Shown: positions 13,488-61,400 of the stretch, piece by piece
How positions within the stretch are numbered: the first letter of the stretch is position 1
Layout of the letters: every line of letters begins with the position of its first letter
Source: an uncultured Candidatus Saccharibacteria bacterium
Lineage (GTDB): Bacteria; Patescibacteriota; Doudnabacteria; UBA920
DNA: 64,000 nt
Direction of reading: 5' to 3'
Assembly: GCA_964648985.1 (NCBI GenBank)
Contig: CAZYMS010000001.1
Span: 1,215-65,214 of the forward strand
Position numbers and translations under genes: made by a program
The notes under the pieces: generated by a model
The model's database searches: none
The model's input: the letters and a program-made list of their open reading frames with translations, nothing else
Told to the model about the DNA's origin: nothing

Positions 13488-14552
13488 ATGCACATTCAAG
13501 AAATTACTGATACAGATAAAGATATATACAATGCCTTTGTTGCAAGCAACAACGGCTCTTTTTTGCAAAGCTATGAATGGGGCGAATGGCAGAAAAAAAA
13601 TGGCAGGAATGCAAGGAGATACACGTGCACAGACGAAACAGGCGCAGTACAACTTGCAGCGCAATTTCTAGTATACCCCCTACCCCTTGGACAGTTTTAT
13701 TTGTATTGCCCATATGGGCCAGTGGCAAATTCCCAATTTCCATCCGCCAGCTGGCGGACCAATTTCCAAACGGCGATACAAGAATTAATAGGGCAAATCA
13801 AAAGAGACCATCCAAAAGCATTATTTACCAAACTGGAACCAATAACGGCTTTCAACCTACAACCTACAACCTACAACCTACAACCTAGTTCCCGAATTCA
13901 ACCCGGTTCCACTTTGCTACTAGACCTCACAAAAACTGAGGAGCAATTGCAAATGGAAATGCACCAGAAGACCAGGTACAACATTAAGGTAGCCAATAAA
14001 CATGGGGTAGTTATTAAAACAGGCACAGATACAACAGGTCCTGAAGCAGAAGAAATACTGATGCTCATTACCAAAACCACAGAAAGACAGGCATATAAAG
14101 GCCATTCGCTTTCCTATTACCAAAACTTTTGCAAATTCTTTGCAGAAGCAGTGCAAAGAAAAAATAATATCAGTGAAATTTCCAACTTAGACACTCCCAG
14201 TATGCAGGTACGATGGTATGGCGCTTTTTACCAGGAACATCTTTTGTCGGGTGGTATATTTATTGATTTCGGCAACACTCGAACATATTTATACGGTGGC
14301 TCAAATGATGCAAAAAAAAACATAATGGCCCCCTACGCTTTGCACTGGCACGCCATACGCGATGCAAAACAAGAAGCAATCACACACTACGATATGGGCG
14401 GCCTTGAAACCAGTTCTGGCACCACCCCTGGCTTTGCCCGCTTTAAACTCGGATTCGGCGGTGGGACAACCCACTACCCAACCCCCACAGATATATCTTG
14501 GCACCCTACCAATTACAAAGTCTACAGGATCGCAAAAAAAATATTGAGATAG
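13488..14552 (+). CDS. FemAB-family peptidoglycan peptidyl-transferase (aminoacyl-tRNA dependent)
   Basis: FLQSYEWGEW N-terminal block and KTRYNIKVANKHGV motif typical of FemABX. Adjacent to a Mur-ligase gene. Confidence 0.65.
   Translation: MHIQEITDTDKDIYNAFVASNNGSFLQSYEWGEWQKKNGRNARRYTCTDETGAVQLAAQFLVYPLPLGQFYLYCPYGPVANSQFPSASWRTNFQTAIQELIGQIKRDHPKALFTKLEPITAFNLQPTTYNLQPSSRIQPGSTLLLDLTKTEEQLQMEMHQKTRYNIKVANKHGVVIKTGTDTTGPEAEEILMLITKTTERQAYKGHSLSYYQNFCKFFAEAVQRKNNISEISNLDTPSMQVRWYGAFYQEHLLSGGIFIDFGNTRTYLYGGSNDAKKNIMAPYALHWHAIRDAKQEAITHYDMGGLETSSGTTPGFARFKLGFGGGTTHYPTPTDISWHPTNYKVYRIAKKILR
13853..13887 (+). repeat. Perfect heptanucleotide tandem repeat (CAACCTA)x5, in frame inside the FemAB-like CDS
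   Basis: Five exact copies read from the sequence. They encode NLQPTTYNLQPS. Confidence 0.9.
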
Positions 14553-14598: not shown

Positions 14599-14632
14599 GA
14601 AAAAGTCGTGGCCAAAGCACCGCGACTTTTTG
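14599..14632. terminator. Bidirectional terminator hairpin between convergent genes
   Basis: A5-GTCGTGG...CCGCGAC-T5, one G:U wobble. Confidence 0.5.
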
Positions 14633-15001
14633 TTATTTCACGTTTTGCAGCACATAGCGAGCCATGGCCTGCAATTCAATGATATGTTCACTCTCTATTC
14701 GAGCAACCCCCTTTACATTAGCAAGGAAGTAATTTAAATACCCCTGCAACACAAGTTTCTGTTCCGACTGGGTTATAGCTTGCTGCTCTAAAGCCATATG
14801 TATCCAACTGCGCATAGCTACATGCTTACCTTTACGACAAAGGTAGCGATGATAACTAGGATCACCTGTATTTGTGATAATTTCTGAAGGTATTAAGGTA
14901 ATGCCTTCTCTTAATACCCAAGCAGCATAGCTGCGCAGCTTTTCGATAATCTCAGTACGAATACCATCCATTATAACCTCCACGGCCTTGAACTTTTGCA
15001 A
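14633..15001 (-). CDS. Hypothetical protein (122 aa)
   Basis: ORF only. Lies immediately 3' of the ClpB-like gene on the same strand, separated by a 12-bp-stem hairpin. Confidence 0.4.
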   Translation of the reverse strand: MQKFKAVEVIMDGIRTEIIEKLRSYAAWVLREGITLIPSEIITNTGDPSYHRYLCRKGKHVAMRSWIHMALEQQAITQSEQKLVLQGYLNYFLANVKGVARIESEHIIELQAMARYVLQNVK

Positions 15002-15063
15002 ATAGATAATAAACCTTGCTTAAACTTTTAGCAAGGTTTATTATACGCGAAATTTATTATACG

Positions 15064-17694
15064 TTATTTCGACACAAATTCTCCGGCTTCATTTACATCT
15101 ATAGTTACATCTCCCCCGCGGTCAAGCTGTTTGGAGAGGAGGAGTTTGGCTATAACGGACTCAACATGGTCCTGAATGTAGCGACGGATGGGACGGCCAC
15201 CAAGGAGCGGATCGAAGGCTTCGGTCGCAACTTTGTTAATGGCTGCTTCGGAAAAACCAAGTTTGATTTTTTTCTCGAGCAGTTGTTTGGTCACTGCACC
15301 AAGCTGGATACGAGTAATTCGCACTACTTCATCTGGCACAAGCGGTTTGAAGAGGATAACCCCATCAAAACGGTTAAGGAATTCTGGGCGGTAGTAATTT
15401 ATAAGAATTTTTTCTAGGAGCTCAGATTTAATTGAGTCTATATCCCTCCCCTCGCGTATGCCTGCTTGTATTTCCGGCGTGCCAGCGTTAGAAGTGGCGA
15501 TGATTATGGTATGCGTGAGGTCGAGTGTTTGCCCTGTCGCGGTAGTAATACGACCGTCTTCAAGTACCGCCAAGAAGAGGTTAAGCACATCAGCACTTGC
15601 CTTTTCAAGCTCGTCTAGTAAAAACAAACAAAATGGGTATGTTTTAAGATGGGTTACAAAGGGAGTAACTACTTGCTGCCCTGGGCTACCCACCAGTTTG
15701 CGCATACCATCGTCGCCCCGATATTCAGACATATCAAGCCGGAGCATATAGCGCTCGTCACCGAAATATACTGCGGCAAGGGTCTTGGCGAGCTCTGTCT
15801 TACCTACACCCGTAGGTCCTACAAACAAGAACGAGGCAAGCGGGCGCTGGCCACTTGAAAGACCGCTACGTGCGCGGCGCATACCTTCCGATACAGCAGT
15901 CACTGCTTCCTTTTGACCTATAACACGCTTGCCAATATCATCTTCCAACCGAAGCAGCTTTTCTGCCTCACCCTCAGTGAACGCACTCGTAGGTACGTGG
16001 GTCTTTTCCGCTACAACTTCTTGTATAACTTGCGGTGTAATAAGTTTTGCCGGACCCTTGGCTGCAGTCTTCACTTTGTTCGCCGCCTCTTGGAGCACTG
16101 AAATAGCTTTTTGTGGCTGACCCACATCTTTAAAGTATTCGTCTGTAAGTCGCACCGCTTCTTGTACTGCCTGGTACTCAAAGAAGGCGCCAGTCTGCCC
16201 TTCCAGCTGACTTGCGCGCATACAACTCGCAAGCATAACACCTTGCTCGTTTAAGTCCTTGAGTTCATATGTCACAAACCGCTCATCAAAATTAGCGCTA
16301 TTACGTAGGGTGGTTTGGTAGTCTTCTGCGGTAGTAGTAGCTATAACCCGGATAGAACTATTCTCCAAGTGATTCACCAACACCTCAAGTACGGACAAGC
16401 CTTCACTACCAGAAGCTTTGGCGAGTTGCTGCACATCATCAAGCGCGAAAATAATATTACCACTGTGCTCAGCTTCATGAAAAATATTGAGCAGGGCTTG
16501 CTCTGGGCTCACCTGACTTCCAAGTATGCCGGCAAGCTCTAAACGAACGAGACGCTTATCCTGCAACGCATATGGTACCTGCTCAGATGCCATCCGATAA
16601 GCCAAATCGGCCAGCACTGTACTACGGCCAGTCCCAACAGCACCTTTAACCAGTACACTCTTACCACTGTTGGCCATCAGGTCCATTATAGTGTCTGTAT
16701 CTGCATCGCGGCCGCGTGTAAGAGGTAGGCGATGGTACTTGGCGGCTATGGTTAAGTCAACGCTAAATTGATCCAGGTATGGCGTAGGTACTGCGGTAAG
16801 ACCCTTGTTTATACCTTTATCGCTTTTGTGTCGGGCAAGTTTACGAAATATTTTATCTTCTTCAAAGAGAAGGTCTATGTTGAAAATCCAAGCTGCTATA
16901 ACCTCCAGCTTGTCATAGGAAAGATCCATGTTAAAGAACAGTTTTTGTACGGGATGTTCGTCGGGAAGCTCAGTTGCAAGCGCGCACAAGAGCATAAGCG
17001 GGTCCACGGAACGGTTGCGCAATTTTAGACTTTCGGACAAAGCCACAAAAGGCACCCGAGCAACATACTCGCTCTCTTTTGTAAGGTCTAAGCTAGGTAG
17101 CATTTGCTTGAGTTGATCCGTAAGCTGGTCTGGGCTTACACCAAAACGATAAAACACAAGTTTAATAGATTCGTGTGCAAGCAAGGCAAGAAAAATATGT
17201 ACTGTGGTAGGTTTTTCACCCGCAATTCCAGGGACGGAGTTCCATATCTGCCTAGCACCCTTAGTGAACAAGTGATACACATCCACAGAACGCCCAGAAC
17301 TAGTCCACTTGCTTACGTTCGCCCATGACAAGACCCGCGTTACTTCATATTCAGCCGCAGCCTTGATCCGCCGCGCCCATAAGTACAATGCCCCCACTGC
17401 GCCGATCCAAACAAAAATGTTGAACCAGTGAGGTTGAACAAAAAACAATAAAGTAAACTCCTCTGTACCTACCGTCACTGCACCAAACACAAACGCAACA
17501 GCCCCCATACCGCATACTATATAGAGAACCATGTCTACCAGGCCATTTGCTGCTTCAGCTGCCTTTTCTCCCGCTATACGTATTGAGGAAAAGCTACCAG
17601 AAAACGAAAAGGCTGCGTTGCCATTGTGCGCCTCAAGCGGCCAACCACCGCTTGTCGGAGTATACTCAAAATTTTGTTCTACAGATTCATCCAT
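15064..17694 (-). CDS. Clp/Hsp100-family AAA+ ATPase (ClpB/ClpC-like), N-terminally membrane-anchored, with degenerate D1 motifs
   Basis: D2 Walker A FVGPTGVGKTELAK, Walker B LFLLDELEKA, and a C-terminal GGRPIRRYI block. D1 Walker A reads GAVGTGRST (Lys to Arg) and Walker B reads ALDDVQ (DE to DD). Two hydrophobic helices (LVDMVLYIVCGMGAVAFVFGAV and IFVWIGAVGALYLWA) precede the Clp_N repeats. No IGF/L ClpP-binding loop is seen. Confidence 0.8.
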   Translation of the reverse strand: MDESVEQNFEYTPTSGGWPLEAHNGNAAFSFSGSFSSIRIAGEKAAEAANGLVDMVLYIVCGMGAVAFVFGAVTVGTEEFTLLFFVQPHWFNIFVWIGAVGALYLWARRIKAAAEYEVTRVLSWANVSKWTSSGRSVDVYHLFTKGARQIWNSVPGIAGEKPTTVHIFLALLAHESIKLVFYRFGVSPDQLTDQLKQMLPSLDLTKESEYVARVPFVALSESLKLRNRSVDPLMLLCALATELPDEHPVQKLFFNMDLSYDKLEVIAAWIFNIDLLFEEDKIFRKLARHKSDKGINKGLTAVPTPYLDQFSVDLTIAAKYHRLPLTRGRDADTDTIMDLMANSGKSVLVKGAVGTGRSTVLADLAYRMASEQVPYALQDKRLVRLELAGILGSQVSPEQALLNIFHEAEHSGNIIFALDDVQQLAKASGSEGLSVLEVLVNHLENSSIRVIATTTAEDYQTTLRNSANFDERFVTYELKDLNEQGVMLASCMRASQLEGQTGAFFEYQAVQEAVRLTDEYFKDVGQPQKAISVLQEAANKVKTAAKGPAKLITPQVIQEVVAEKTHVPTSAFTEGEAEKLLRLEDDIGKRVIGQKEAVTAVSEGMRRARSGLSSGQRPLASFLFVGPTGVGKTELAKTLAAVYFGDERYMLRLDMSEYRGDDGMRKLVGSPGQQVVTPFVTHLKTYPFCLFLLDELEKASADVLNLFLAVLEDGRITTATGQTLDLTHTIIIATSNAGTPEIQAGIREGRDIDSIKSELLEKILINYYRPEFLNRFDGVILFKPLVPDEVVRITRIQLGAVTKQLLEKKIKLGFSEAAINKVATEAFDPLLGGRPIRRYIQDHVESVIAKLLLSKQLDRGGDVTIDVNEAGEFVSK

Positions 17695-17705
17695 GGGTGT
17701 AGTGA

Positions 17706-18044
17706 TTACGCGAACAAGCTAAATAGTTGGTAAATAATCATGACAATAGCTAGCGGAAGTGCTAGTACGTGAAATAAAAAAAGGGCAAAAGCAAATACAA
17801 GCCTGGCTGCTGTCCAGAAAAAAATGAAAAAGAGCAAAATAACTCGAAGAAAAATACTAATGATTCTACCTTGCCGGGTAGTATCACCGTATAAAGGCTG
17901 GGTAATATTACGCAAAAAAATAACGAGCCCTGTAGAGCGCAAAATGTAGCGAAACCTTGACTGGCAATGCCGCCACGCAAGCGTAAGTCCTTCGCTATAC
18001 CACCATATGGGAAAGTTAAATATTGAAAGTGGTTGATTGTTCAT
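17706..18044 (-). CDS. Small integral membrane protein (112 aa), upstream and co-oriented with the ClpB-like gene
   Basis: Three to four hydrophobic segments, 12-bp gap to the next gene. Confidence 0.45.
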   Translation of the reverse strand: MNNQPLSIFNFPIWWYSEGLTLAWRHCQSRFRYILRSTGLVIFLRNITQPLYGDTTRQGRIISIFLRVILLFFIFFWTAARLVFAFALFLFHVLALPLAIVMIIYQLFSLFA

Positions 18045-18245: not shown

Positions 18246-19595
18246 ATGATACGTGTGATAAAAAATTTTGCTCGAAAACTTATACCTGCTGGAATATTTA
18301 AGGCTGCCCAGCCGTATTACCATGGTTTACTTGCTACATGTGCCCACTATTATTACGGACAACCCAGCAATAAGCTTATTATAATAAGCGTAACTGGTAC
18401 TAAAGGCAAAACCTCTACCGCGCATATTATCTACCAAACCCTTAACAACTTAGGAGCTCCGTGCGGATTAGTCACCACTGCAGTAATTGATGACGGCTCT
18501 GGACAGCGCATGAACGAATATCGCATGACACAAATGTCCGGCCCAGTTACTCACAATCTTCTTGCGCACATGGTAAAGGCAGGAAAAAAGTATGCGGTTG
18601 TGGAAGTATCCAGTGAAGGACTAGCTCAGCACCGACATCTAGGCGTTAATTTTGATATAGCAGTATTTACCAATCTATCGCCCGACCACGTAGATGCCCA
18701 CGGAAGTTTTCAAGCGTATAAAGAAGCCAAAGGAATACTGTTTAAGACACTCGGTAAGTTACAAGTTACAAGTTACAAGTTACAAGTAAATCCGGTTATA
18801 GCAAAGACAATTGTTTCGAATGTAGATAGTGAGCACGGGTTATATTACCTCAATTTTAAGGCGGATAAGCATATCACGTACGGCATAGAAAATTCCTCAG
18901 CGAATCTAGTGGCGAAGGACATCCAAACTTCAACAAATGGCAGTGTATTCAACTTGTCACTTGTCACTTGTCACTTGTCACTACCCGGCAAATTTAATAT
19001 CTATAATGCGCTTGCTTCAGTGGCAGTAGCTGAGTCGCTCGGGTTCAATAAAGAGGTAATAGCAAAAGCGTTAGAGAAGCTACAGCCAATTCCGGGGCGC
19101 ATGGAAGTTTTACAGGTAGAACCCTTTACCGTACTTGTAGATTACGCTCATGAAAAAGCATCTATGACCGCACTCTATGAGACAGTAAAAAGCTGGCCAC
19201 ACAAACGCATTATTCAAGTATTTGGCGCAACAGGTGGCGTGCGGGATAAATCCAGACGAACCGACCTGGGAACCCTTGCGGGTAAGTTTACAGATATAGC
19301 TATAATTACAGATGAAGACCCATTCGACGAGGACCCACAAACTATAATTGATGATATTGCAGACACAGCAGTAGCAGAAGGTAGGGTTATTGGAAAAGAT
19401 TTATTTAGGAACTCAGATCGCCGCGGCGCCATAGCCCAAGCCCTTTCTCTTGCCAAGCCCGGGGACCTAGTACTCATAACAGGTAAAGGAGCGGAACAAA
19501 AAATCGCCCGTGCCAATGGCCAGTACGAAGAATGGGATGATCGGATAGTTACACAAGAACTACTCTCGGAACTGTCGCGAACCCCTAACCCGTGA
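18246..19595 (+). CDS. Mur ligase family protein (MurE/MurT-like) lacking the canonical N-terminal domain
   Basis: P-loop VTGTKGKTSTAHI, DYAHEKASM, C-terminal ITGKGAEQ. Central and C-terminal Mur ligase domains are recognisable. Confidence 0.7.
   Translation: MIRVIKNFARKLIPAGIFKAAQPYYHGLLATCAHYYYGQPSNKLIIISVTGTKGKTSTAHIIYQTLNNLGAPCGLVTTAVIDDGSGQRMNEYRMTQMSGPVTHNLLAHMVKAGKKYAVVEVSSEGLAQHRHLGVNFDIAVFTNLSPDHVDAHGSFQAYKEAKGILFKTLGKLQVTSYKLQVNPVIAKTIVSNVDSEHGLYYLNFKADKHITYGIENSSANLVAKDIQTSTNGSVFNLSLVTCHLSLPGKFNIYNALASVAVAESLGFNKEVIAKALEKLQPIPGRMEVLQVEPFTVLVDYAHEKASMTALYETVKSWPHKRIIQVFGATGGVRDKSRRTDLGTLAGKFTDIAIITDEDPFDEDPQTIIDDIADTAVAEGRVIGKDLFRNSDRRGAIAQALSLAKPGDLVLITGKGAEQKIARANGQYEEWDDRIVTQELLSELSRTPNP
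18758..18787 (+). repeat. Perfect heptanucleotide repeat (GTTACAA)x4, in frame in the Mur-ligase CDS
   Basis: Four exact copies. They encode LQVTSYKLQV. Confidence 0.9.
18952..18982 (+). repeat. Perfect heptanucleotide repeat (ACTTGTC)x4, in frame in the Mur-ligase CDS; a near reverse-complement of the upstream (GTTACAA)n array
   Basis: Four exact copies. The reverse complement of GTTACAAGT is ACTTGTAAC, versus ACTTGTCAC here. Encodes SLVTCHLS. Confidence 0.9.
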
Positions 19596-19632: not shown

Positions 19633-19956
19633 ATTCTCCATCTTAATACCACGAAACTTGAACGGATCGAATTCAAGCTACTAGATGGTAAAAAAACCAT
19701 AGCCGAGGATACTGTAGCACTTGAATATCACGAAAACGGTGACATACTTAAACACCTTGAAGCATTTTTGCGAAAACAAAAAGTAAAGAGTTTGGCATCG
19801 GGCTCTAAAAACCTACAACCTACAACCTACAACCTAATTACTGGTATTCGCGTTTCTGCCGGCACCGGTTCTTACACCGGCATCCGTGTAGGGACTTCTA
19901 TTGCGCAGGCACTAAGCCTTGCCTGGAATGTGCCTTTAAAAATTAAGAGCACCTAA
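19630..19956 (+). CDS. TsaB/YeaZ-like protein, N-terminal domain only (108 aa)
   Basis: ITGIRVSAGTGSYTGIRVGTSIAQALSLAWNVPL matches the TsaB GPGSFTGLRIG...A.ALA...P motif region. The ORF ends about 100 aa short of a typical TsaB. Confidence 0.5.
   Translation: MILHLNTTKLERIEFKLLDGKKTIAEDTVALEYHENGDILKHLEAFLRKQKVKSLASGSKNLQPTTYNLITGIRVSAGTGSYTGIRVGTSIAQALSLAWNVPLKIKST
19810..19836 (+). repeat. Heptanucleotide repeat (AACCTAC)x3.9, in frame in the TsaB-like CDS; same unit and phase as the array in the FemAB-like gene
   Basis: Encodes NLQPTTYNL, the same peptide as at 13853-13887. Confidence 0.9.
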
Positions 19957-20008: not shown

Positions 20009-22447
20009 CTAATTAAATAAATTACTAATTACTGCTCCATACAAATCCCACTCCCCCCATACATCATTTGGGCGTAAATCATACGGGGCACCAAACCCGA
20101 CAAAAGAGTTGTTCGATACTTTATTGCCAAGCCTATCCCGCTCAATTCCGGGATTATTAGCAAAACCGGGAAATGTATCAGCGGGAACTACTACTCGAGG
20201 ACTTGTCCAGCTTATGCCGTTTACAGACGTACTTGTCGCTAAGTTTGCACCGTCCGCGTGCTGTTGACCGATTATTAGCATCCGGAACAGATTACTAGAC
20301 TGGTCATATACCACATCTACTGAGTTCAAAAATTCTCCAGGGTATATCACATTCAGACGATGAACCTGCTTGTCCATCCAACTTACGGGGTCATTGGAAA
20401 TTCGCAAGCGCATACGGTCGGCCGAAGCAATATCTTCAGAATCGTCTGTGTACCACATGTACAACTGCCCTCCTTTTACTACCACGGTTTGTTGACCAGC
20501 GCCGTACCCAGCCTGAGAACGTCCAGGTATTGGCTCCAAGGCTACGGCGGGACGGAGAATAGTCTTTGGATTTTTCGCCCCCACGACCCACGCACCCTCC
20601 ACAGTGTAAATAGCGTAGTCACCATTTATAGTGCTGCTCCTAGCAACATTCACAATGGTTTGATTGCCACCATTTTCGTTTATATGCGCATTTGAGTAAT
20701 ACATGTAGTAATACCCGCCAAAATAGACAATATTCGGATCGCACGCAGCAAAGTTGCTTGTTAAGCCTTCTACGTTTGTAGGAGTGGCAGTCACCTTTAC
20801 AACTGGTGTACTCCAATTAACCCCGTCTGTAGAGGAAATGTAGCGAATAGAATCCCACCCATAGCCGCCATTCGGGCCTGGTTGTGAGCAAAAGAATACG
20901 TGGTATATACCATTTTCTTTTACTATAGCGGGTCCATATGCATGACCAAAATTACCCGCAGACGAATCGGCCATTTTAACATAGTTCGGAGTAACTACTG
21001 GAGTCGCACTACTTATATTTACACTCACTTCATTACTCCACGACCAATCAGTCTTGTTTCGTGGCCTGAACCGTGCTTTGTAAATTCCTGGAGAAGTTGA
21101 AGCATCAATGGGAACAATGACTTTGCCAGCATTGTCTAAGGTGTAAGAACCCCAGGCTCCTGTAGTGGTTTGACCACAGAGGACTTGGGAAGCACAAATT
21201 TTAAGTTGGTAGTCCAGCTGCCGCTGGTTTCCAGTGTAGGTGCCAGTACCGACGTTGGCAGACAGGGTATAGCTCTGACCATGGGTTACAGAAGTAGAGT
21301 CAGCATCATTTACTTTGATAGTTAATTGGGCAATAACAGGAGGAGCCTCGGTAGCTACCACGGTAACAACAAACTGATTGCTCCAGGAAGTTGTAGTTTG
21401 TCCTTTGGGACGAATGCGTGCTTTGTAGGTACCAGGAGCAAGCGTGCCAGGAGTTGATATGGTGGCCTTACCATCAGCGCCAAACCTTACCCCAATCCAG
21501 GGGTATACGGCAGGCTGGCTGCACCCGGGAGTACAGACTATAGATTCAACATCGACTTCTCCTTGGAACGGACTGCTGTTCCGAGTTGTAGAAAGTGTGT
21601 AGCTTTGTCCTTGCGTTACCTGCTGGGCAGAAGGAGTAACTGAAACAGCACCGGTCTCTACTGGAGGAGGATTGAGCTTTGGGAGTACCGTAATAATAAT
21701 CTCATTGCTCCAGGTGGCGGCGGTAGCGCCTGCAGGACGAACTTGAGCTTTGTAGGAACCAAGAGGAAGGGTTGCAGGAACAGGGATAGTGGCTGTACCT
21801 GCTTGATCAAACGTTACCCATGGAGCATAGACTGCAGACGGGTTGCAACGATCGGTGGGGCAGAAGGTAGACTTTACGTCTACGCTACCTTTGAAGGGCA
21901 GTTGACCTTGTATGGCTGAAAGGGTGTAGCTTTGGCCAGGAGTGACTTCTCTTGGACCCACTACAGAGAGCGTAAGAGGAGTAGTTTCTACAATACAACC
22001 TTGAGTAGTGTGCATAATTTGGACAGAGGCAAGTACAGATCGTGTCTCTACCGGAACCCTATTCCATGACTTGTTTTTGTACTGCCATTCGAAACTTGTA
22101 GTAATACCCACAAGAGAGTAGGTGGAACCATTGTTTGTACCAGTCACGGCTTTTTGGCCAGAACCTGCCCCCCGACCTATAATGCTGCCACCAGGATAGA
22201 TACCTTGATAGAGCTCGTACTTTGTTGTAGTGGAAATATTCCAAGATAGCGTAGTGGAACCAGTGACAGCACCAGGACAAACAGTAATAGGATTTGGAGC
22301 AGCTGAAAGGACAGAACCATTGGCCGAAGAAGATAAATTCTTGCCTTTTACATAGTACGCAGAAACAACCGCTGTAGTAATACCTACAACGGCAAGTAGA
22401 GAAAGGCCGAGCCAGTGCGCTCGGGCGAGTTTCCAGAGAGGATTCAT
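20009..22447 (-). CDS. Exported multidomain surface protein: signal/anchor, 3-4 Ig-like repeats, C-terminal 5-bladed beta-propeller glycoside-hydrolase-like domain (GH43/GH32-like)
   Basis: N-terminal hydrophobic segment. An approximately 90-aa module repeated with a (T/H)(Q/P)GQSYTLS ... YKA(Q/R)(V/I/F)RP ... WSN(E/Q) signature. C-terminal DPNIVYFGGYYYMYYS-type propeller motifs. Confidence 0.65.
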   Translation of the reverse strand: MNPLWKLARAHWLGLSLLAVVGITTAVVSAYYVKGKNLSSSANGSVLSAAPNPITVCPGAVTGSTTLSWNISTTTKYELYQGIYPGGSIIGRGAGSGQKAVTGTNNGSTYSLVGITTSFEWQYKNKSWNRVPVETRSVLASVQIMHTTQGCIVETTPLTLSVVGPREVTPGQSYTLSAIQGQLPFKGSVDVKSTFCPTDRCNPSAVYAPWVTFDQAGTATIPVPATLPLGSYKAQVRPAGATAATWSNEIIITVLPKLNPPPVETGAVSVTPSAQQVTQGQSYTLSTTRNSSPFQGEVDVESIVCTPGCSQPAVYPWIGVRFGADGKATISTPGTLAPGTYKARIRPKGQTTTSWSNQFVVTVVATEAPPVIAQLTIKVNDADSTSVTHGQSYTLSANVGTGTYTGNQRQLDYQLKICASQVLCGQTTTGAWGSYTLDNAGKVIVPIDASTSPGIYKARFRPRNKTDWSWSNEVSVNISSATPVVTPNYVKMADSSAGNFGHAYGPAIVKENGIYHVFFCSQPGPNGGYGWDSIRYISSTDGVNWSTPVVKVTATPTNVEGLTSNFAACDPNIVYFGGYYYMYYSNAHINENGGNQTIVNVARSSTINGDYAIYTVEGAWVVGAKNPKTILRPAVALEPIPGRSQAGYGAGQQTVVVKGGQLYMWYTDDSEDIASADRMRLRISNDPVSWMDKQVHRLNVIYPGEFLNSVDVVYDQSSNLFRMLIIGQQHADGANLATSTSVNGISWTSPRVVVPADTFPGFANNPGIERDRLGNKVSNNSFVGFGAPYDLRPNDVWGEWDLYGAVISNLFN

Positions 22448-55476: not shown

Positions 55477-58400
55477 CTATTCAGTTACTATCTCGGGTTC
55501 CGGGTCAACTGCGGGGGTAGGTTCGGGGGCCGGTGTTTCACTTTCTGCGCCATCACCACCTTCCTCAGTGGTGGGGGATGGAGGGTCTGTTTGGTGTGTA
55601 TTTTCTGGTGGGGTATTGTTTTGTACTACTGGTGCCTGCTGAACGATTTGTGTTACTTGCTGGAAAGTGGACAAAAGCATGACCCGAATAGAGCCTGTAT
55701 TGTCGGGGGTGCTATCTAGAGAAATTCCAAATACTTGACCCTGGGCTTCCGATGGAAGCTTTGCAGCTTTTCCAGCAAAGGTTGATGCAGTAAGCTTGTC
55801 GCCTAGAGATACGCTCCCATTCACAAATACCTTTTTGTAGGTTCCTGTTATGACGATGCTTACATATTCACCTGGTTTAATAGTTGTTGGGTCGTCTGTA
55901 ATAGGGGAGTCAGGGCTTATATTAAAGTCTGAAAGGTTGCGGTCTGCTACGCCAACAATAATTGTGTTTGCACCTGCTACTGCTTTTGCAATGGTGAGAG
56001 TGGGTTGGTCACCCAGTATTGGTTCCTCTGTTGCGCCAGTAAGCATAAGTAAGTCCCCTTGGTGTATGGTTTCGTTGCTGGTATTCTTTGCCACTATTGC
56101 GGTAGAACCTAATATTCTACCAAGCACAGCAACGTCTTTCTTTACAACCAAGGTGCCCGTGAGTATGGCAGTGCCTTTGGTGTTTATGGTAAAGAGGGAA
56201 GTATCTGCATTGGTTATTTCCAGTACTATGCCACTTGCGAGGTTTGCATTAATATGAACGGTACCATCGTTTGCCACGAGGAAGTTGTCCATGCCGTCCT
56301 TTTGTAGCTGTAAGAGATTACCACTATCCTTTTGATTTATTATGAACGAAGTATCGTGGCCTTCAATTGTTCCGCCGCCAACTTCATTTATTACCTGTCC
56401 ATCTTGTTCTCCAACAGTAAAGGTAAATGATGGTTTGGAGACATTGCCTTTAGGGTCTTGAATAAGAGAGGTGTTGTTTAATTCTTTGGTTGCATTTACC
56501 AAAGCAGCAAGGATTGGGCGGTCCGATAGAGATAGATAACCTTGTGGGTCAGTATCTACTGCCTCAGGGATTGCTGTTTGGATATTCTGAGCGCTGAATC
56601 CAGCATTAAGGAAAGTTTGGTCTAGGCCTGATAGAGCGTTCCAGCGATAGAGGATCGGATCTATTGCCATTATTGACGAAAGGCCGCGGTCAAATGCTCC
56701 TTGTACATCTTTTAGTCGAATATCAGAAGAGCTGGTAAGGTTCCCCGATGCATCTGAGCTCACAGTACCAGTGCCGAAAGCGTGGATACGGAAACCACCT
56801 GCTCCGGAAATGGTTACACGTTGGTTTACGCCATTTGTGAAGAACGCTATGGGGGCGTTGGCTCCATTGTAGAAGTTAAGCGAATTGGCGCCTCCAAAAG
56901 TCGTTTCAGTTGAGCTACTGTAAATCATCTGTCCGCCATATGCATTTGAATCATTTCCCAAGGCGATACGTGCGCTCGCGGAAGATCCGGAATTGTTATT
57001 ATAGACTCTGAGAATGCTATAGGTATTTTGACTCTTTTGAATATCTACCGTGCTTAGCGAATCAGGGGCGGCCGTTCCTATTCCAACTCGACCATCGTTT
57101 TGGATTATCAGTCCCGGGCTGTTTGATGAGTCAATTACGCTTAGTAATGCCGGTAACTTATCTGGGGTGGTGTCATTAGCGTTGTTAGAGAAAGCAGTGT
57201 CAACCGTCAGTGAGGTATCGGACGCAATAGCAGTAACCGTCCTGGTTTCTCCGGTAACTGTGATGCGGTCGCCCACGGCCAATTCAGTAAGAAACGCAGT
57301 GCCGCTGCCAGTAACTGTAGTTGATGCAGCTGGGTCGATATCTCCGGTTAGCTCAGATGTGGCATTTGCTTTAATATTTGCGGATCCGATGAGCCGCAAG
57401 CCTGGTTGACTAGTCACGTTGGAGATTGTTGCAAAATTGGTGCTTACGTCGCTAAATCTATATCTTGCTCCTGTTGTTACTCCACCTGTGCTGAAATCGA
57501 ATCCGCTTACGTTGCTTGTGGCGATTGAACCGTAGGTGTCGTATGCTTCATTGAATGTTTTAATATGATACGGAGCATATCCCACATCGCTTAATGAGCG
57601 TATATACATACCAGTGGTGTAACCGCTTGCTGCAGCATCCCATCCGTCAAAGTTGAAAGTGAATGCGTTTGATGTTGCGCTTTCACCACCCCCGACTGAT
57701 TCGCGGCTGTTGACTACTAGGCCCATGCTAGCGTTCGTGTTGCCCCTTGAGCCGTTACGCACGTATATACCTGCGGTCGACTGTTTTTCCAGTTGTGCTC
57801 CCCAAGCATAGTAGGCAGTAGTACCGTTGTTGATTATGAATGTTACTGTGCCGGTTGAAGAACCGTTAAAGGCTTGGGTAACGGTAAAGCGTTGCCAGCT
57901 AGTAGTAACTGTCACCGTGTTGGCGGTACCGGTTTGGTTCCCGGAGTCTAGTCGTAAGTTTACCGTGCCGGAGCCGGATGACTTTTTGAGCCACACAGAA
58001 CCTGTCCAGGTGGTGCTGGTAGAAGAAGTAGAGAGCCAGTCTGCTTGTTTTACGTTATCGGTAGAGCTTCCACCTGCGCCAATTGTGTCCGCAGTTGTGT
58101 AGCCGTCCGGTCCTGTGGTGCTGTTGGCGGTTATGCTGACACCTGTTTTGGTCCACGCGGCATTGTCTAATTCTTCCGTGTATTTTATACGATTTTCGCT
58201 TCTGCCAAATCCACCCTGTGGCGAGTACATATATCCAGAGTCCAAAAGCAGGTCTGATCCATCCCCTAAGTTTAATCTTTCAGATGGGGTTGTTTTTGCG
58301 ACACCTATATTACCGCCGGCAAATATTGCTGCGTAGTTCGTATCTCCGGAAGTTGGTTCTTCCACGTAGAGTCCAATCTTGGTGGTTGTGCCTGTGCTGT

Positions 58401-61400
58401 GGGTGTTTGAGTTGGCTATGTAAGCACCATAAGAGTTAAGTGTGCCTCCTGTAGTGAGCCTTCCGTTGGCTTGCGCGAATATACCATAAGAATTTACTGT
58501 TGCGCCGGTAGTGGAATCACTCGAAGTTGGTAAGAAATATCCGCCGTATATATTGGTTGTTCCACCGTTGCTGGCACCCGTGCTGCTGCTAGGGGCAGAG
58601 TAAATACCGTATATGTCCCTAGTATTTGCGGATATGGCACCTGTTGCGTTGGCTGAGAAATATCCGCCATAGAGGGCATATGAATTGCTGGTAGAGTCAG
58701 ATGTGACGTTGGAATACAATCCATAACCAGTTTTGCCTCCGTTTCCTGTCATAGTTAGATTGCTTTGCAAGTTGTAATTTGTTTTATTCGTAGCCGTGCT
58801 GTCGGTTCCGTCAATTTTTATGCCGTATCCGGTGCTAGTACTGCCGGAATAGTCTGGTGCAAAGTAGGCGAGTACGCCGGCAGTACTACCACTTCCTACA
58901 TCCGAAACGACTTTCATAAAACCAGAAGATGTCCCTGTGATAACCCCGGTGGACGTCGGACCAGTAAGTGAAAGGGCGGACCCGGTTGTTAGAGAAGTCA
59001 TGGATATTGCCTGACCAATGCCCACCGTTGAAGAGTTTGCCGCTAAGTTGATAAACGTGGCCGCACCTGTGGTGGAAGTAGAGCTAAGGTTAATAAGGCT
59101 GCCGGTGAATCCGGTGGTGGTTCCGGTCTGGGCAATGTCAATGTATTTAGCCGAGGTTTGGCTTGCGCCGTTGGCTGCGATAGACATCATGGTGCCGGAT
59201 GTAAGGCTGTTGCTGTTGAAGGCAAGGAGTCCGGTCCCCGTGTAAGCGCCACCATTTGCGCTAATGTTCAGTGCGGTACCGGTAGATGCTGTGCCCATCA
59301 CTAATCCCATAAGTTGGCCACCTGCCATAGATCCACCACCAGTGACCTGAATACCGGTACCGCTGGTAATGCCGGTGGTTGATATATTTAAGGCTGTGCC
59401 TGTAAAGCTGGCTGTATTATTTGTAAGGTTTACTAAGGTGCCCGCAGTAGAAGCGGACGAGGTGACATTGAGCAACCCTCCGGTAGAGGTGTATGCTCCG
59501 CTGTGGCTGATTTGTACTAAACCATTTGCGATAGCCGAAGTTCCCGAAGCAGACACTTTCAAAGCGGCGCCGCTTGTAATACCTGAGCCAGCAGCTATGT
59601 TTGTAATTGTACCGGTTGTTATGCCGGTGCCAGACACGCTTTGTACAACACCGCCTGTGGTTGCGTTGCCTGTGACGTTGAGTAGGCCGCCGCTGCCAGT
59701 GTATGCCCCACTTGCCGTGAGTTGTACTATACCGTTTGTTACTGCGCCAGTGGTGGCGGAAGTAACTTTTAAGGCTGAGCCGGATGTAAGGCCGGTAGCA
59801 GAAGAGGTGATAGAGAGGTTGTCTGTTGTGGTGGTAGCACCCCAGTCTAATGTTTGGGTAGTAGTGCCCATGTTTATGGCGCCATTGCCGCTGGGGTCGC
59901 CAATAGCGTCAAATGCCGTTGCCGCACCCGCGCAGCCTGTACAAGAAGTAACCGTTAAGGCGCCACCACTGGTAAGTTTTGCGACACTTGTATTTGCGAC
60001 TTGGAAGTCGAAAAAGTTACCCGTAAAGCTTGCAGGATTGGCCCCGATGTATGTTCCGTTGGTCGAGCCGCTGGAAAGAGCTGTGTTTGAAAGATTGAAT
60101 AATGCATGCGTTGCAGAGGCGTTTATAGCCGTACTAATAGAAAGGGGGTCTACCGGGGTGCCCGTGCCAATGCCAAGCCCTGTCGAGTTCCAAATTCCCG
60201 TGGTTGAGTTGTTAACGCTGAAGGTAATGTTGCCACCGCTTGATCCAGAAACACCAGCTCTTAATAGAAGGTTGCTTGCGCCGCTGTCTCCATTGTTTCC
60301 AACTGAGACAGTTGCCGCTGGTTGGTACCAATAGCCAGAAGTGGCACTAAAATTGGTAATGCCTTGACCGATTGTAGAAATACCACCGGCCTCATTTAGG
60401 CTAAATGCAGTTGTTCCATTAAGTTTTACATCTATTATTCTTCCGTTAAACCCGCTTGGTGCGTTTATACCAAGACCTGTGCCGCTTGTGGACCACCCGG
60501 TAGACGTCGCTCCGCTTGCTTCGACTAAGAGTTGGGGTTTGGTGGTGGTTGAGTCACCACCAGTGAACCACGAGCCACTTAATTTGGCTCCTGGGTTGGA
60601 TGCTGCACCGTTCGATCCAATGTGTAAGAAAGCGGTAGGGGAGGTGGTCCCTATTCCAACATTGCCACCAGTAAATACTGCTCCATAATTGTTGGTTGCG
60701 CCGGTTGGAGCATCAATATATAGCCCATATCCGTTGGTTACGGCGCCTGAACCAGTAGTAAGGTCTGCCGTGCCAATTCTGAGCCCTACCGCATTGGTAA
60801 TGGCTACGCCAGTAGAACCGGCTGCTATGGGAGCAGAAGAAATAGTTACGCTGTTTGCGTTAGTAATCGCGACTTGTGTTGCGTCATTGTCTTGTATGGT
60901 AGGCGCGTTAAATAAGAAGCTGTCCATTGCAGTAGTAACAGCAGTAGAGCCAGTAAGCGTAATAGTAGGGGAGGTAAAGGTCCCCGTCGTATACTCTGCG
61001 CTTGTCGCGCTTGCGACGGTTTGGGCTGGGGCGACGACATGTAAAGCGGAGCTGGGGTTAGTGATGCCAATGCCGATTTCTCCCGCAAAATAGCTGTCAG
61101 AAGTTGAGGAGCTGTATATGCTGTAATTTCCAGTAGCGGGTACACTAGAACCTAAAACCAGGTTAATGTAGTCTGAGGCACTCGTAGAAGCATACGCGTG
61201 CAAACCTACATTGAGCACCCCGCCACCTGCTACAGTAGCCTGGAATTGACCTGCTATATTTGTATACGCATTGTTTGCTATTGCGTACAGACCTATGTTC
61301 GTATTGTCAGTCCCGCTAGTGCTGTTGGCAAAGTACCCAGTATAGGTAGTTTGGTTGTTAGCACTCGTGCCAGCAGAAGAAACATTTAATGCCTTTTGAG

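What the first reader, a model, noticed from the sequence alone, without database searches (positions are those of the whole stretch)
14633..18044. Membrane-anchored Hsp100/Clp-type ATPase with an apparently dead D1, in a three-gene same-strand cluster with two small unknown proteins
Clp/Hsp100 proteins are normally soluble. Here two hydrophobic helices precede the Clp_N repeats. The D1 ring has Walker A Lys replaced by Arg (GAVGTGRST) and Walker B DE replaced by DD, while D2 is canonical. There is no ClpP-docking IGF/L loop, so it resembles ClpB more than ClpC. It is preceded by a 112-aa multi-TM protein 12 bp upstream and followed, after a 12-bp-stem hairpin, by a 122-aa unknown protein. Possible roles are a membrane-associated disaggregase, extraction machine, or secretion/pilus-related unfoldase.
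Basis: partly seen in the sequence, partly recalled or inferred. Interest (0 to 1): 0.6.

Follow-up and report, generated by a model that had tools for sequence, protein, structure and literature searches.

The report
Membrane-anchored Clp ATPase with small partner
This is a membrane-tethered relative of the Clp/Hsp100 protein-unfolding machines, always encoded next to a small membrane protein and usually among cell-division and cell-wall genes of ultrasmall Patescibacteria; it lacks the parts that normally grip and thread proteins, so it probably works differently.

Summary
Comparison with 82 related loci changes the picture.

- **Family architecture.** The 876-aa protein belongs to a Patescibacteria-wide Clp/Hsp100 subfamily. 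The order of parts is an N-terminal zinc knuckle (degenerate here), two TM helices, a Clp_N domain, D1, then D2.
- **D1.** It is catalytically dead in every member. The catalytic Glu, the Arg fingers and the pore-loop Tyr are all lost.
- **D2.** All its ATPase motifs are kept, but the Tyr pore loop is removed by a 4-residue deletion.
- **Missing features.** There is no M-domain and no ClpP-docking loop, so it is not ClpB, ClpC or ClpA.
- **The upstream gene.** The 112-aa gene is an obligate partner, present directly upstream in 82 of 82 loci. It has no Pfam family and about 2,000 database relatives.
- **The downstream gene.** The 122-aa gene is not conserved (0 of 82). A 15-bp hairpin separates it from the Clp gene.
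- **Genomic context.** In many other lineages the pair sits in the dcw operon as mraZ-rsmH-ftsL-small-Clp-mraY. In this window it sits between a Mur ligase and FemAB.

My best reading is a D2-driven membrane remodeller or switch that does not degrade proteins and probably does not thread them. It would act with its small partner on the division or cell-wall machinery. I found no description of it in the literature. I rate it a new variant of a known kind.

The parts
17706..18044 (-). Small partner gene (112 aa). Its basic cytoplasmic N-terminal part carries the invariant residues P12, W14, W15, G19, P50, S63 and R67. A long C-terminal hydrophobic helix forms the membrane anchor.
   Evidence: ORF. 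No Pfam, NCBIfam or PHROG match. Found directly upstream of the Clp-like gene in 82 of 82 loci. Family alignments A5 and A6. AlphaFold2 pLDDT 89, helices 10-38, 40-45 and 57-111. 1,951 relatives and 631 clusters at 50% identity, nearly all 105-170 aa and none with a functional name or Pfam domain.
15064..17694 (-). Membrane-anchored Clp/Hsp100-type ATPase gene (876 aa).
17605..17667 (-). N-terminal three-strand beta element (residues 10-30). It sits where 45 of 84 relatives carry a CxxCxGxG...CxxCxG zinc knuckle. The Cys residues are lost in this lineage.
   Evidence: AlphaFold2 strands 10-13, 20-24 and 27-30. Zinc-knuckle census and sequences. Sub-threshold DnaJ_CXXCXGXG, Anti-TRAP and BSD2_CRD matches.
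17470..17541 (-). Transmembrane helix 1 (about residues 52-75).
   Evidence: KD mean 2.32. Lies within AlphaFold2 helix 37-79. Conserved in the family.
17374..17433 (-). Transmembrane helix 2 (about residues 88-107), carrying the family motif FWxGxxxxLYLW. It is followed by the basic stretch RRIK.
   Evidence: WW octanol sum -12.9 kcal/mol and flanking charges. AlphaFold2 helix 91-118. A3 consensus.
16831..17325 (-). Clp_N-type helical N-domain (residues 124-288).
   Evidence: Pfam Clp_N match at residues 163-199, 23.7 bits against a cutoff of 20.7. Clp_N is precomputed for many relatives. AlphaFold2 shows an all-helical domain.
16060..16782 (-). D1 AAA+ module (residues 305-545), catalytically degenerate. 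Walker A is GAVGTGRS (16621-16644). Walker B is ALDD (16435-16452). It has no KYRG pore loop, no RR finger and no M-domain insertion.
15067..16032 (-). D2 AAA+ module plus the D2-small domain (residues 555-876). Walker A is GPTGVGKT (15796-15819). Walker B is LLDELE (15604-15627). Sensor 1 is TSN, the Arg finger is LNRF and sensor 2 is GGRPIRR. The pore-1 loop is shortened and has no Tyr (15658-15690). There is no ClpP loop.
15006..15044 (-). Perfect 15-bp hairpin with a 9-nt loop just after the Clp stop codon. It is a likely transcript end or stabiliser and marks the boundary of the module.
   Evidence: Sequence. Fold of -18.2 kcal/mol, z-score -4.8. The consensus terminator scan did not list it, because the stem is A+T-rich and there is no T-run.
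14633..15001 (-). Downstream 122-aa ORF. It is NOT part of the module. It is a variable-spot gene with its own GGAGG-ATG at 14971 and a promoter-like site at 15034-15006.
   Evidence: No tblastn match in any of the 82 related loci scanned. L003, L001 and the P0031 locus carry different genes there. No Pfam or PHROG match. Promoter-like site.

Best explanation
The locus encodes a two-gene membrane module specific to Patescibacteria (CPR).

**Anatomy (shown)**
- The large protein is a class-I Clp/Hsp100 ATPase anchored by an N-terminal two-helix hairpin.
- With that topology, its Clp_N domains and the D1 face of the presumed hexamer would sit directly under the cytoplasmic membrane.
- D1 keeps the glycine frame of the P-loop but has lost the catalytic Glu, the Arg fingers and the pore loop.
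- D2 keeps every ATPase motif.
- The pore-1 loop of D2 is shortened and has no aromatic residue.
- There is no M-domain and no ClpP-docking loop.
- A small membrane-anchored protein of about 112-130 aa is always encoded just upstream, and the two genes often overlap.

**Mechanism (inferred)**
- D1 is a non-hydrolysing structural ring, and D2 is the only motor.
- The machine neither degrades proteins nor cooperates with DnaK in the ClpB manner.
- It is unlikely to thread polypeptides processively.
- I propose it is an ATP-driven clamp or switch, comparable in logic to Torsin with its membrane cofactors.
- In this model it assembles, disassembles or locally remodels a membrane complex that includes the small partner.
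- Its target would lie in the division or peptidoglycan-precursor machinery, the FtsL/MraY neighbourhood.
- The exact substrate is unknown.
For: **Architecture**
- Motif census over 82 family members:
  - The D1 catalytic Glu is kept in 0 of 82.
  - The D1 Walker A residue is Lys in 52, Arg in 29 and Thr in 1.
  - In D2, Walker A, Walker B (DE), the Arg finger and sensor 2 are kept in 82 of 82, and sensor-1 Asn in 82 of 82.
  - The D2 pore loop carries a 4-residue deletion, and Tyr is absent in 74 of 82.
- The region that would hold a ClpP loop is uniformly 36 residues, and none of the 82 members carries the ClpC-type VGLGF insertion.
- No M-domain is present.

**Obligate partner**
- The small gene is directly upstream in 82 of 82 loci, mostly with a gap of -14 to +20 nt.
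- Reverse look-ups from two distant small proteins each find a Clp-like gene of 895 or 923 aa overlapping the small gene's end.
- The invariant residues of the small protein lie in its cytoplasmic part.

**Cell-envelope link**
- The order mraZ-rsmH-ftsL-small-Clp-mraY-DUF192 recurs. Of 82 loci, MraY is present in 42, RsmH in 39, MraZ in 36 and FtsL in 30. Many of the other contigs are truncated.
- Among the MraY-linked members compared, the Clp proteins share a median identity of only 45% and a minimum of 36.5%.
- Clp-to-mraY gaps are 7-26 nt.
- The Doudnabacteria-type clade, which includes the window, has a Mur ligase upstream and FemAB downstream.

**Analogy.** Torsins are Clp/Hsp100 relatives that lack aromatic pore loops and depend on membrane cofactors (PMC5425593).
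Against: - There are no experimental data of any kind.
- Gene neighbourhood is only circumstantial evidence of function. In some lineages the pair lies outside cell-wall genes, for example next to tRNA synthetases in L083.
- Non-aromatic pore loops do not prove that threading is absent. The strict conservation of the D2 Arg finger and sensor 2 suggests a normally cycling hexamer, and such a hexamer could still pull on substrates.
- Unlike Torsin, this protein has its own Arg finger, so the small partner is not needed to complete the active site.
- Hexamer formation and physical contact with the small protein are inferred, not shown.
- The transmembrane topology rests on hydropathy, flanking charges and AlphaFold2. 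No dedicated predictor was used.
Confidence: 0.45

Rival explanations
1. It is a membrane-protein extractase or unfoldase, working like FtsH without its protease domain or like Msp1. The hexamer pulls membrane proteins such as FtsL, MraY or misassembled proteins out of the bilayer through its central pore. It would use non-canonical pore loops, and the small protein would act as adaptor or regulator.
For: - The entry face (Clp_N and D1) points at the membrane, given the N-terminal TM hairpin.
- D2 keeps a complete set of hydrolysis and inter-subunit motifs in 82 of 82 members.
- The overall fold matches substrate-threading ClpC, ClpB and ClpC1 hexamer subunits.
- The dcw context provides plausible membrane substrates.
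Against: - Neither ring has a pore-loop aromatic residue.
- The D2 loop is shortened by 4 residues and is polar or glycine-rich (GQQVV, GQQGTG, NEKASG).
- In established Clp/Hsp100 biochemistry, the D2 pore-loop Tyr is required for translocation.
- No protease or chaperone gene was seen as a conserved neighbour in the 82 loci.
Confidence: 0.3
2. It is a general membrane-proximal chaperone or quality-control factor of reduced-genome bacteria, with no specific role in division. On this view the dcw placement is a historical accident of operon structure.
For: - Some loci lie outside cell-wall gene clusters.
- Patescibacteria have few chaperones (background knowledge).
- In canonical Clp proteins, Clp_N domains bind substrates or adaptors (background knowledge).
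Against: - Synteny with ftsL and mraY is retained at a median Clp identity of 45% across several named lineages, including Magasanikbacteria and Uhrbacteria. Kuenenbacteria keeps mraY downstream.
- An independent cell-wall context, Mur ligase plus FemAB, occurs in the Doudnabacteria-type clade.
- There is no M-domain for DnaK coupling.
Confidence: 0.15
3. It is a ClpC/ClpA-type unfoldase that delivers substrates to ClpP, forming a membrane-bound Clp protease.
For: - Public sources label relatives as ClpA or ClpC.
- The best PDB sequence hits are ClpC.
Against: - No IGF/L-type loop is present in 82 of 82 members. The segment is 36 residues, against 42 in a ClpC-like reference that carries VGLGF.
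- It scores far below the curated ClpA cutoff, 340 against 993.
- The pore loops are absent.
Confidence: 0.03
4. It is a ClpB-type disaggregase that happens to be tethered to the membrane.
For: - The top NCBIfam hit by score is ClpB, and the match is confined to D2.
- There is no ClpP loop.
Against: - There is no M-domain.
- D1 is dead, and both pore-loop Tyr residues are missing.
- The ClpB model score is 392 against a cutoff of 1232.
Confidence: 0.04

Closest known systems
Class-I Clp/Hsp100 ATPases (ClpA, ClpC, ClpB)
   Same: - Clp_N domain followed by two tandem AAA+ modules and a D2-small domain.
- D2 is 40-43% identical to ClpB and ClpC over its core.
- The fold matches ClpC, ClpB and ClpC1 subunits.
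- The D1-to-D2 spacing is like ClpA, with no middle domain.
   Different: - Integral membrane anchor.
- N-terminal zinc knuckle in about half of the members.
- D1 is catalytically dead.
- Both pore-loop tyrosines are missing.
- No M-domain, so not ClpB or ClpC. No ClpP loop, so not ClpA or ClpC.
- An obligate small membrane partner gene.
- Scores below every curated NCBIfam cutoff.
Torsin ATPases with LAP1/LULL1 (eukaryotic ER and nuclear envelope)
   Same: - Belongs to the Clp/Hsp100 clade.
- Membrane-associated.
- Lacks aromatic pore loops.
- Works with a membrane-anchored cofactor (PMC5425593).
- A weak Pfam Torsin match to the D2 of a relative.
   Different: - Torsins have a single AAA+ module, lie in the ER lumen and lack an Arg finger, which the cofactor supplies.
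- Here there are two rings, the location is cytoplasmic, D2 has its own Arg finger, and the partner is a small helical protein rather than a degenerate AAA+ fold.
- The resemblance is one of working logic, not family membership.
FtsH, Msp1/ATAD1 (membrane-anchored AAA+ machines)
   Same: - N-terminal TM anchor that places the ring's entry face at the membrane surface.
- FtsH likewise has two N-terminal TM helices.
   Different: - FtsH and Msp1 have a single AAA ring from the classical clade with aromatic pore loops, and FtsH also has a protease domain.
- None of these features is present here.
ClpE and ClpX N-terminal zinc-binding domains; DnaJ cysteine-rich CxxCxGxG domain
   Same: Many relatives begin with the pattern CxxCxGxG, about 6 residues, then CxxCxG, placed ahead of the ATPase. 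There are weak DnaJ_CXXCXGXG, Anti-TRAP and BSD2 matches.
   Different: - All matches are below the Pfam thresholds.
- There is only one zinc centre.
- It is followed by a TM hairpin.
- The Cys residues are lost in the window's lineage.
Plasmodium PTEX (HSP101 on the EXP2 pore); chloroplast Hsp93 at the TIC complex
   Same: An Hsp100 ATPase operates at a membrane together with membrane partner proteins (background knowledge).
   Different: Those Hsp100 proteins are soluble, have two active rings with Tyr pore loops, and thread cargo. Their membrane attachment comes through partner proteins, not through their own TM helices.

Membership tests
Clp/Hsp100 class I (double-ring AAA+) | Two tandem AAA+ modules, with a C-terminal D2-small domain | tested here: met
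   AAA_2 at 1.2e-36 and ClpB_D2-small at 5e-19. D1 is seen by AAA_16, AAA_22 and AAA_lid_9. AlphaFold2 and Foldseek match ClpC and ClpB.
Clp/Hsp100 class I (double-ring AAA+) | Clp_N N-terminal domain | tested here: met
   Pfam Clp_N at 23.7 bits against a cutoff of 20.7, one repeat only. Helical domain at residues 124-288 in the model. Clp_N is recorded for many relatives.
Clp/Hsp100 class I (double-ring AAA+) | Aromatic (Tyr) pore-1 loops in the rings | tested here: not met
   The D1 KYRG loop is absent. The D2 GYVG loop is removed by a 4-residue deletion, and Tyr is absent in 74 of 82 members.
ClpB / Hsp104 | Coiled-coil M-domain inserted in the D1 small subdomain | tested here: not met
   The alignment shows a gap of 100 columns or more opposite the ClpB and ClpV M-domains. 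Walker A spacing is 275 residues against about 400.
ClpB / Hsp104 | Score above the curated equivalog cutoff (TIGR03346) | tested here: not met
   391.8 bits against a cutoff of 1232.1.
ClpA / ClpC (ClpP partners) | IGF/L-type ClpP-docking loop in D2 | tested here: not met
   The segment between sensor 1 and the Arg finger is 36 residues, and none of the 82 members carries the ClpC-type VGLGF insertion. The ClpC-like reference has VGLGF in a 42-residue segment.
ClpA / ClpC (ClpP partners) | Score above the curated ClpA cutoff (TIGR02639); for ClpC, a short M-domain with a UVR motif | tested here: not met
   340.1 bits against a cutoff of 993. No M-domain or UVR match.
ClpV / TssH (type VI secretion) | Curated cutoff (TIGR03345) and T6SS gene neighbourhood | tested here: not met
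   290.5 bits against a cutoff of 885. The conserved neighbours are dcw or cell-wall genes, not T6SS genes.
Torsin-like | Lacks aromatic pore loops | tested here: met
   This property of Torsin is taken from PMC5425593.
Torsin-like | Lacks its own Arg finger, which a cofactor supplies; single AAA+ module | tested here: not met
   The D2 Arg finger LNRF is conserved in 82 of 82 members, and there are two AAA+ modules.
FtsH-type membrane AAA protease | M41 protease domain after the AAA module | tested here: not met
   No peptidase domain in the Pfam scan.
Proposed new subfamily (Patescibacteria membrane Clp plus small partner) | TM hairpin before Clp_N; dead D1; active D2 with a shortened, Tyr-less pore loop; small partner gene directly upstream | tested here: met
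   The window protein shows all four features.
Proposed new subfamily (Patescibacteria membrane Clp plus small partner) | Physical complex between the two proteins; hexamer at the membrane | not testable with these tools
This needs co-purification or cryo-EM.

The most novel reading that the evidence does not exclude
The small protein and the membrane Clp together form a previously unrecognised divisome or peptidoglycan-synthesis component specific to Patescibacteria. It occupies the slot between ftsL and mraY, where ftsI, murE and murF normally sit in the dcw operon. It would work as a non-threading Hsp100 switch, similar in logic to Torsin, that uses D2 ATP hydrolysis to control assembly or activity of the septal or lipid-I machinery in these ultrasmall cells.
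Probability: 0.3. Interest if true: 0.8.

Novelty: new variant of a known kind. Interest (0 to 1): 0.62.

Why it matters
**For AAA+ mechanism.** Clp/Hsp100 machines are textbook soluble, pore-loop-driven unfoldases. This natural subfamily is different in three ways:
- It is integral to the membrane.
- One ring is permanently dead.
- The other ring has had its gripping tyrosine removed, yet every ATPase motif is under strict conservation.

It would therefore be a bacterial counterpart to the Torsin problem: what does a Clp-type ring do when it cannot thread?

**For Patescibacteria biology.** These bacteria make up a large share of bacterial diversity, and almost nothing is known about how they divide. 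This gene pair gives a concrete, testable candidate. It is widespread, sits in the dcw operon and is lineage-specific.

**For annotation.** The small partner family has about 2,000 database members, none with a functional name or Pfam domain. Linking it to the Clp-like ATPase gives those members a first functional context.

Tried and rejected
- **Fold search of the small partner against the PDB.** Only chance helical matches appeared, all with E above 1.
- **Family scans.** Pfam, NCBIfam and PHROGs gave nothing for the 112-aa and 122-aa proteins.
- **Fusion clue.** P0322 (414 aa) looked like a fusion of the small protein to another domain. Its C-terminal part is simply the Clp N-terminus. I read it as a read-through or frameshifted call on a short contig, so it adds nothing beyond adjacency.
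- **Compensating pore residue.** I considered that a hydrophobic residue (F678, or L/I in relatives) replaces the lost Tyr in the D2 pore loop. The alignment shows that it corresponds to the canonical Leu of GGQLTE, so I dropped the idea.
- **Displaced ftsI.** I looked for ftsI in the larger gaps between ftsL and the pair. The inserts encode TGT, a PAS-GGDEF protein or unknown proteins, not a PBP.
- **Correlated loss.** I considered that loss of the Clp zinc knuckle goes with loss of the small protein's N-terminal helix. This holds only for the Doudnabacteria-type clade and depends on uncertain start calls, so I do not claim it.
- **Literature.** Searches on Patescibacteria with ClpB or ClpC, membrane-anchored Hsp100, dcw with CPR, and Parcubacteria with ftsL and mraY found no description of this family. 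The Saccharibacteria genetics paper does not mention Clp, AAA or dcw.
- **Organism labels.** Titles such as "uncultured Gammaproteobacteria", "Vicinamibacterales" or "Udaeobacter" on some loci are treated as unreliable MAG labels. The local gene content and the 70-85% identical MraZ match the Patescibacteria loci.

Full report
**1. What is in the window**

Three ORFs lie on the minus strand: 17706-18044 (112 aa), 15064-17694 (876 aa) and 14633-15001 (122 aa). The surroundings include rpoB, ruvA, a FemAB-family gene, a Mur ligase and a TsaB-like gene. The closest database relatives are labelled Candidatus Doudnabacteria, so the source is a Patescibacteria (CPR) genome.

**2. The large protein**

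- **Domains.** Pfam finds AAA_2 (1.2e-36), ClpB_D2-small (5e-19) and one Clp_N repeat (23.7 bits against a cutoff of 20.7). Over D1 it finds only weak generic AAA matches.
- **Curated models.** All curated NCBIfam Clp models match far below their cutoffs: ClpB 392 against 1232, ClpA 340 against 993, ClpV 291 against 885, ClpG/ClpK about 320 against 1900.
- **PDB sequence search.** ClpC and ClpB match only over D2. ClpA aligns as a single stretch from residue 306 to 868. The D1-D2 junction is therefore ClpA-like, with no middle domain.
- **Structure model.** An AlphaFold2 model built from 59 family sequences has mean pLDDT 87. It shows:
  - a small three-strand sheet at residues 10-30;
  - two long helices at 37-79 and 91-118;
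  - a helical Clp_N domain at 124-288;
  - D1 at 305-545;
  - D2 plus D2-small at 555-876.
- **Fold search.** Foldseek returns ClpC, ClpC1 and ClpB subunits.

**3. Membrane anchor**

- Residues 55-73 have a Kyte-Doolittle mean of 2.32.
- Residues 80-107 are aromatic-rich, with a Wimley-White octanol sum of -12.9 kcal/mol.
- The loop between them has a net charge of -2 and no Lys or Arg. The stretch after the second segment has four Lys/Arg. This fits an N-in, C-in hairpin, as required for a cytoplasmic ATPase.
- Hydrophobic segments occur at this N-terminal position in every full-length relative from P0001 to P0066 and in P0093. They are absent from the canonical ClpB, ClpC and ClpV hits.
- TM2 carries a family motif, FWxGxxxxLYLW.
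The segments are not Clp_N helices, and the orthologues do not start downstream of them.

**4. Motif states across the family**

I aligned 82 family members taken from related loci, plus canonical references.

| Feature | Window protein | Family (82 members) |
|---|---|---|
| D1 catalytic Glu | Asp (ALDD) | Never kept; Asn or Asp instead |
| D1 Walker B Asp | Asp | Variable: N, E, D, H, K or P |
| D1 Walker A Lys | Arg (GAVGTGRS) | Lys 52, Arg 29, Thr 1 |
| D1 KYRG pore loop | Absent | Absent |
| D1 RR Arg fingers | Lost | Lost |
| D2 Walker A | GPTGVGKT | 81 of 82 (GSTGVGKT in the other) |
| D2 Walker B DE | Kept | 82 of 82 |
| D2 sensor 1 | TSN | TSN in 80, TTN in 2 |
| D2 Arg finger | LNRF | Arg kept in 82 of 82 |
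| D2 sensor 2 | GGRPIRR | Kept in 82 of 82 (GARPxRR-type) |
| D2 pore-1 loop | GSPGQQVV | 4-residue deletion; no Tyr in 74 of 82 |
| ClpP-loop region | 36 residues | Uniformly 36 residues; none of the 82 carries the ClpC-type VGLGF insertion |

Further points:
- The canonical D2 pore-1 loop is GAPPGYVGYEEGG. In the family it becomes GSPGQQVV, GQPGQQGTG, GAPNEKASG and similar polar or glycine-rich sequences.
- The single aromatic residue in the window's clade (F678) aligns with the canonical Leu of GGQLTE. It is not a replacement pore residue.
- The ClpP-loop region is 32 residues in ClpB and 42 in a ClpC-like reference that carries VGLGF.

**5. N-terminal zinc knuckle**

- 45 of 84 relatives begin with the pattern CxxCxGxG, about 6 residues, CxxCxG, then a beta-hairpin of the FLYWG type ahead of TM1.
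- Pfam gives only sub-threshold matches, to DnaJ_CXXCXGXG, Anti-TRAP and the BSD2 cysteine-rich domain.
- The window's clade has lost the cysteines but keeps the beta element (FSFSG).

**6. The upstream small gene is an obligate partner**

- tblastn finds a homologue immediately upstream and on the same strand in 82 of 82 loci. The gap to the Clp start is mostly -14 to +20 nt.
- This holds down to 30% identity between small proteins.
- Starting instead from two distant small proteins, the next gene is again a Clp-like ATPase, of 895 aa in one case and 923 aa in the other.
- The family has 1,951 relatives in the 90%-clustered database and 631 clusters at 50% identity. Nearly all are 105-170 aa. 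None carries a functional name or a Pfam domain, and most of the organism names shown are Patescibacteria lineages.
- The invariant residues are P12, W14, W15, G19, P50, S63 and R67. They lie in the basic N-terminal 60 residues and the juxtamembrane helix, which is net +5.
- The AlphaFold2 model (pLDDT 89) is a helical hairpin whose second helix (residues 57-111) continues into the hydrophobic C-terminal anchor.
- No PDB fold match was found.

**7. The downstream 122-aa gene is not part of the module**

- It has no counterpart in any of the 82 related loci scanned, including L003, whose Clp is about 91-93% identical. L003, L001 and the P0031 locus carry unrelated genes at that position.
- A perfect 15-bp hairpin follows the Clp stop codon (15006-15044; -18.2 kcal/mol; z-score -4.8).
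- The ORF has its own GGAGG-ATG at 14971 and a promoter-like site upstream.

**8. Genomic context**

- **Non-Doudnabacteria lineages.** In lineages labelled Magasanikbacteria, Uhrbacteria, Falkowbacteria, Parcubacteria and others, the pair sits inside the start of the dcw operon, in the order mraZ-rsmH-ftsL(DivIC-like)-small-Clp-mraY-DUF192. In the Kuenenbacteria locus, mraY again lies downstream.
- **Counts.** Of 82 loci, MraY is present in 42, RsmH in 39, MraZ in 36 and FtsL in 30. Many of the remaining contigs are truncated.
- **Spacing.** The gaps from Clp to mraY are 7-26 nt.
- **Divergence.** Among the MraY-linked members compared, the Clp proteins share a median identity of 45% and a minimum of 36.5%. 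The synteny therefore does not simply reflect close relatedness.
- **The usual occupants.** This is the position where ftsI, murE and murF usually lie (background knowledge). Larger gaps in some loci hold TGT, a PAS-GGDEF protein or unknown genes, not a PBP.
- **Doudnabacteria-type clade.** In this clade (the window, L001 and L003-L021) the pair is flanked by a divergent Mur ligase with a TsaB-like gene on one side and by FemAB with RuvA on the other.
- **Exceptions.** A minority of loci lie elsewhere, for example L083.

**9. Interpretation**

*Shown:*
- a membrane-anchored class-I Hsp100;
- a family-wide dead D1;
- a fully equipped D2 ATPase without an aromatic pore loop;
- no M-domain and no ClpP loop;
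- an obligate small membrane partner;
- a conserved cell-division and cell-wall neighbourhood.

*Inferred:*
- D1 is a structural ring that may still bind nucleotide.
- D2 is the sole motor.
- The protein forms a hexamer under the membrane with its N-domain face towards the bilayer.
- It forms a physical complex with the small protein.

In Clp/Hsp100 proteins the D2 Tyr is required for translocation (established biochemistry). The only known Clp-clade proteins without aromatic pore loops, the Torsins, work as cofactor-dependent membrane switches (PMC5425593). I therefore favour a non-degradative, probably non-processive remodeller or switch acting on the division or peptidoglycan-precursor machinery.

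The main rival is an extractase that still threads substrates with atypical loops. ClpP-coupled proteolysis and ClpB-type disaggregation are each contradicted by features I tested.

**10. Novelty**

- The proteins are in public databases, labelled "ClpA/ClpC", "AAA family ATPase" or "hypothetical protein".
- Seven full-text searches and two targeted paper look-ups found no description of a membrane-anchored Clp/Hsp100 subfamily, of its partner, or of its dcw placement.
- The library does not cover most subscription journals, so a prior report cannot be excluded.
- I class it as a new variant of a known kind.

Noticed in passing
window 13853-13887, 18756-18787, 18952-18982, 19810-19836; L003 2859-2887, 3786-3817, 9941-9960: Perfect heptanucleotide tandem repeats of 4-5 copies lie inside the cell-wall genes that flank the Clp pair.
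- In the window: CAACCTA x5 in FemAB; AAGTTAC x4.6 and ACTTGTC x4.4 in the Mur ligase; AACCTAC x3.9 in the TsaB-like ORF.
- They are not insertions. At the two Mur-ligase sites aligned, the orthologues have the same protein length.
- Each genome has its own 7-aa-periodic peptide at those sites (window KLQVTSYKLQVN, L003 KLKVTSEKLKVN, L001 KLQITNYKLQIN).
- Period 7 accounts for 13 of the 36 TRF rows in the window.
- Being repeated at fixed sites seems conserved while the repeat unit differs between genomes.
- I have no explanation. Slippage-driven phase variation and short-tract gene conversion are possibilities.
   Followed up: partly
relatives P0057, P0060, P0061, P0063 and 45 of 84 loci (e.g. 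L040 4713-4830): An N-terminal DnaJ-like CxxCxGxG...CxxCxG zinc knuckle precedes the TM hairpin in about half of the family. It is lost in the window's clade.
   Followed up: yes
hits P0096 and P0097 (about 940 aa) and P0093 (715 aa, Roizmanbacteria): These are other unusual Clp-type architectures among distant hits.
- P0096 and P0097 carry a PCRF (peptide-chain release factor, PF03462) domain in the same protein as the Clp ATPase.
- P0093 is a shorter Clp-like protein from Roizmanbacteria that bears a TM segment and lacks a recognisable D1 Walker A.
   Followed up: no
window 55477-63630 (-): A very large ORF of 2,717 aa with a GTG start lies in a region where GC skew changes sign at about 54 kb. 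It was not analysed.
   Followed up: no
window 20009-22447 (-): An 812-aa protein has an N-terminal TM or signal segment and repeated beta-sandwich-like segments. It gives only sub-threshold GH43 and BNR matches. It is probably a surface or secreted glycan-binding or glycan-hydrolysing protein.
   Followed up: no
L041, L055, L078 and many 'TPA_asm: uncultured Gammaproteobacteria / Saccharibacteria' loci: The organism names on these MAG records disagree with their gene content, which is a Patescibacteria-type dcw start with MraZ 70-85% identical to that of L002. The labels look like placeholders or binning errors.
   Followed up: partly
window 14600-14631: A 12-bp hairpin followed by a T-run lies between the convergent FemAB gene and the 122-aa gene. 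It is a likely bidirectional terminator.
   Followed up: no
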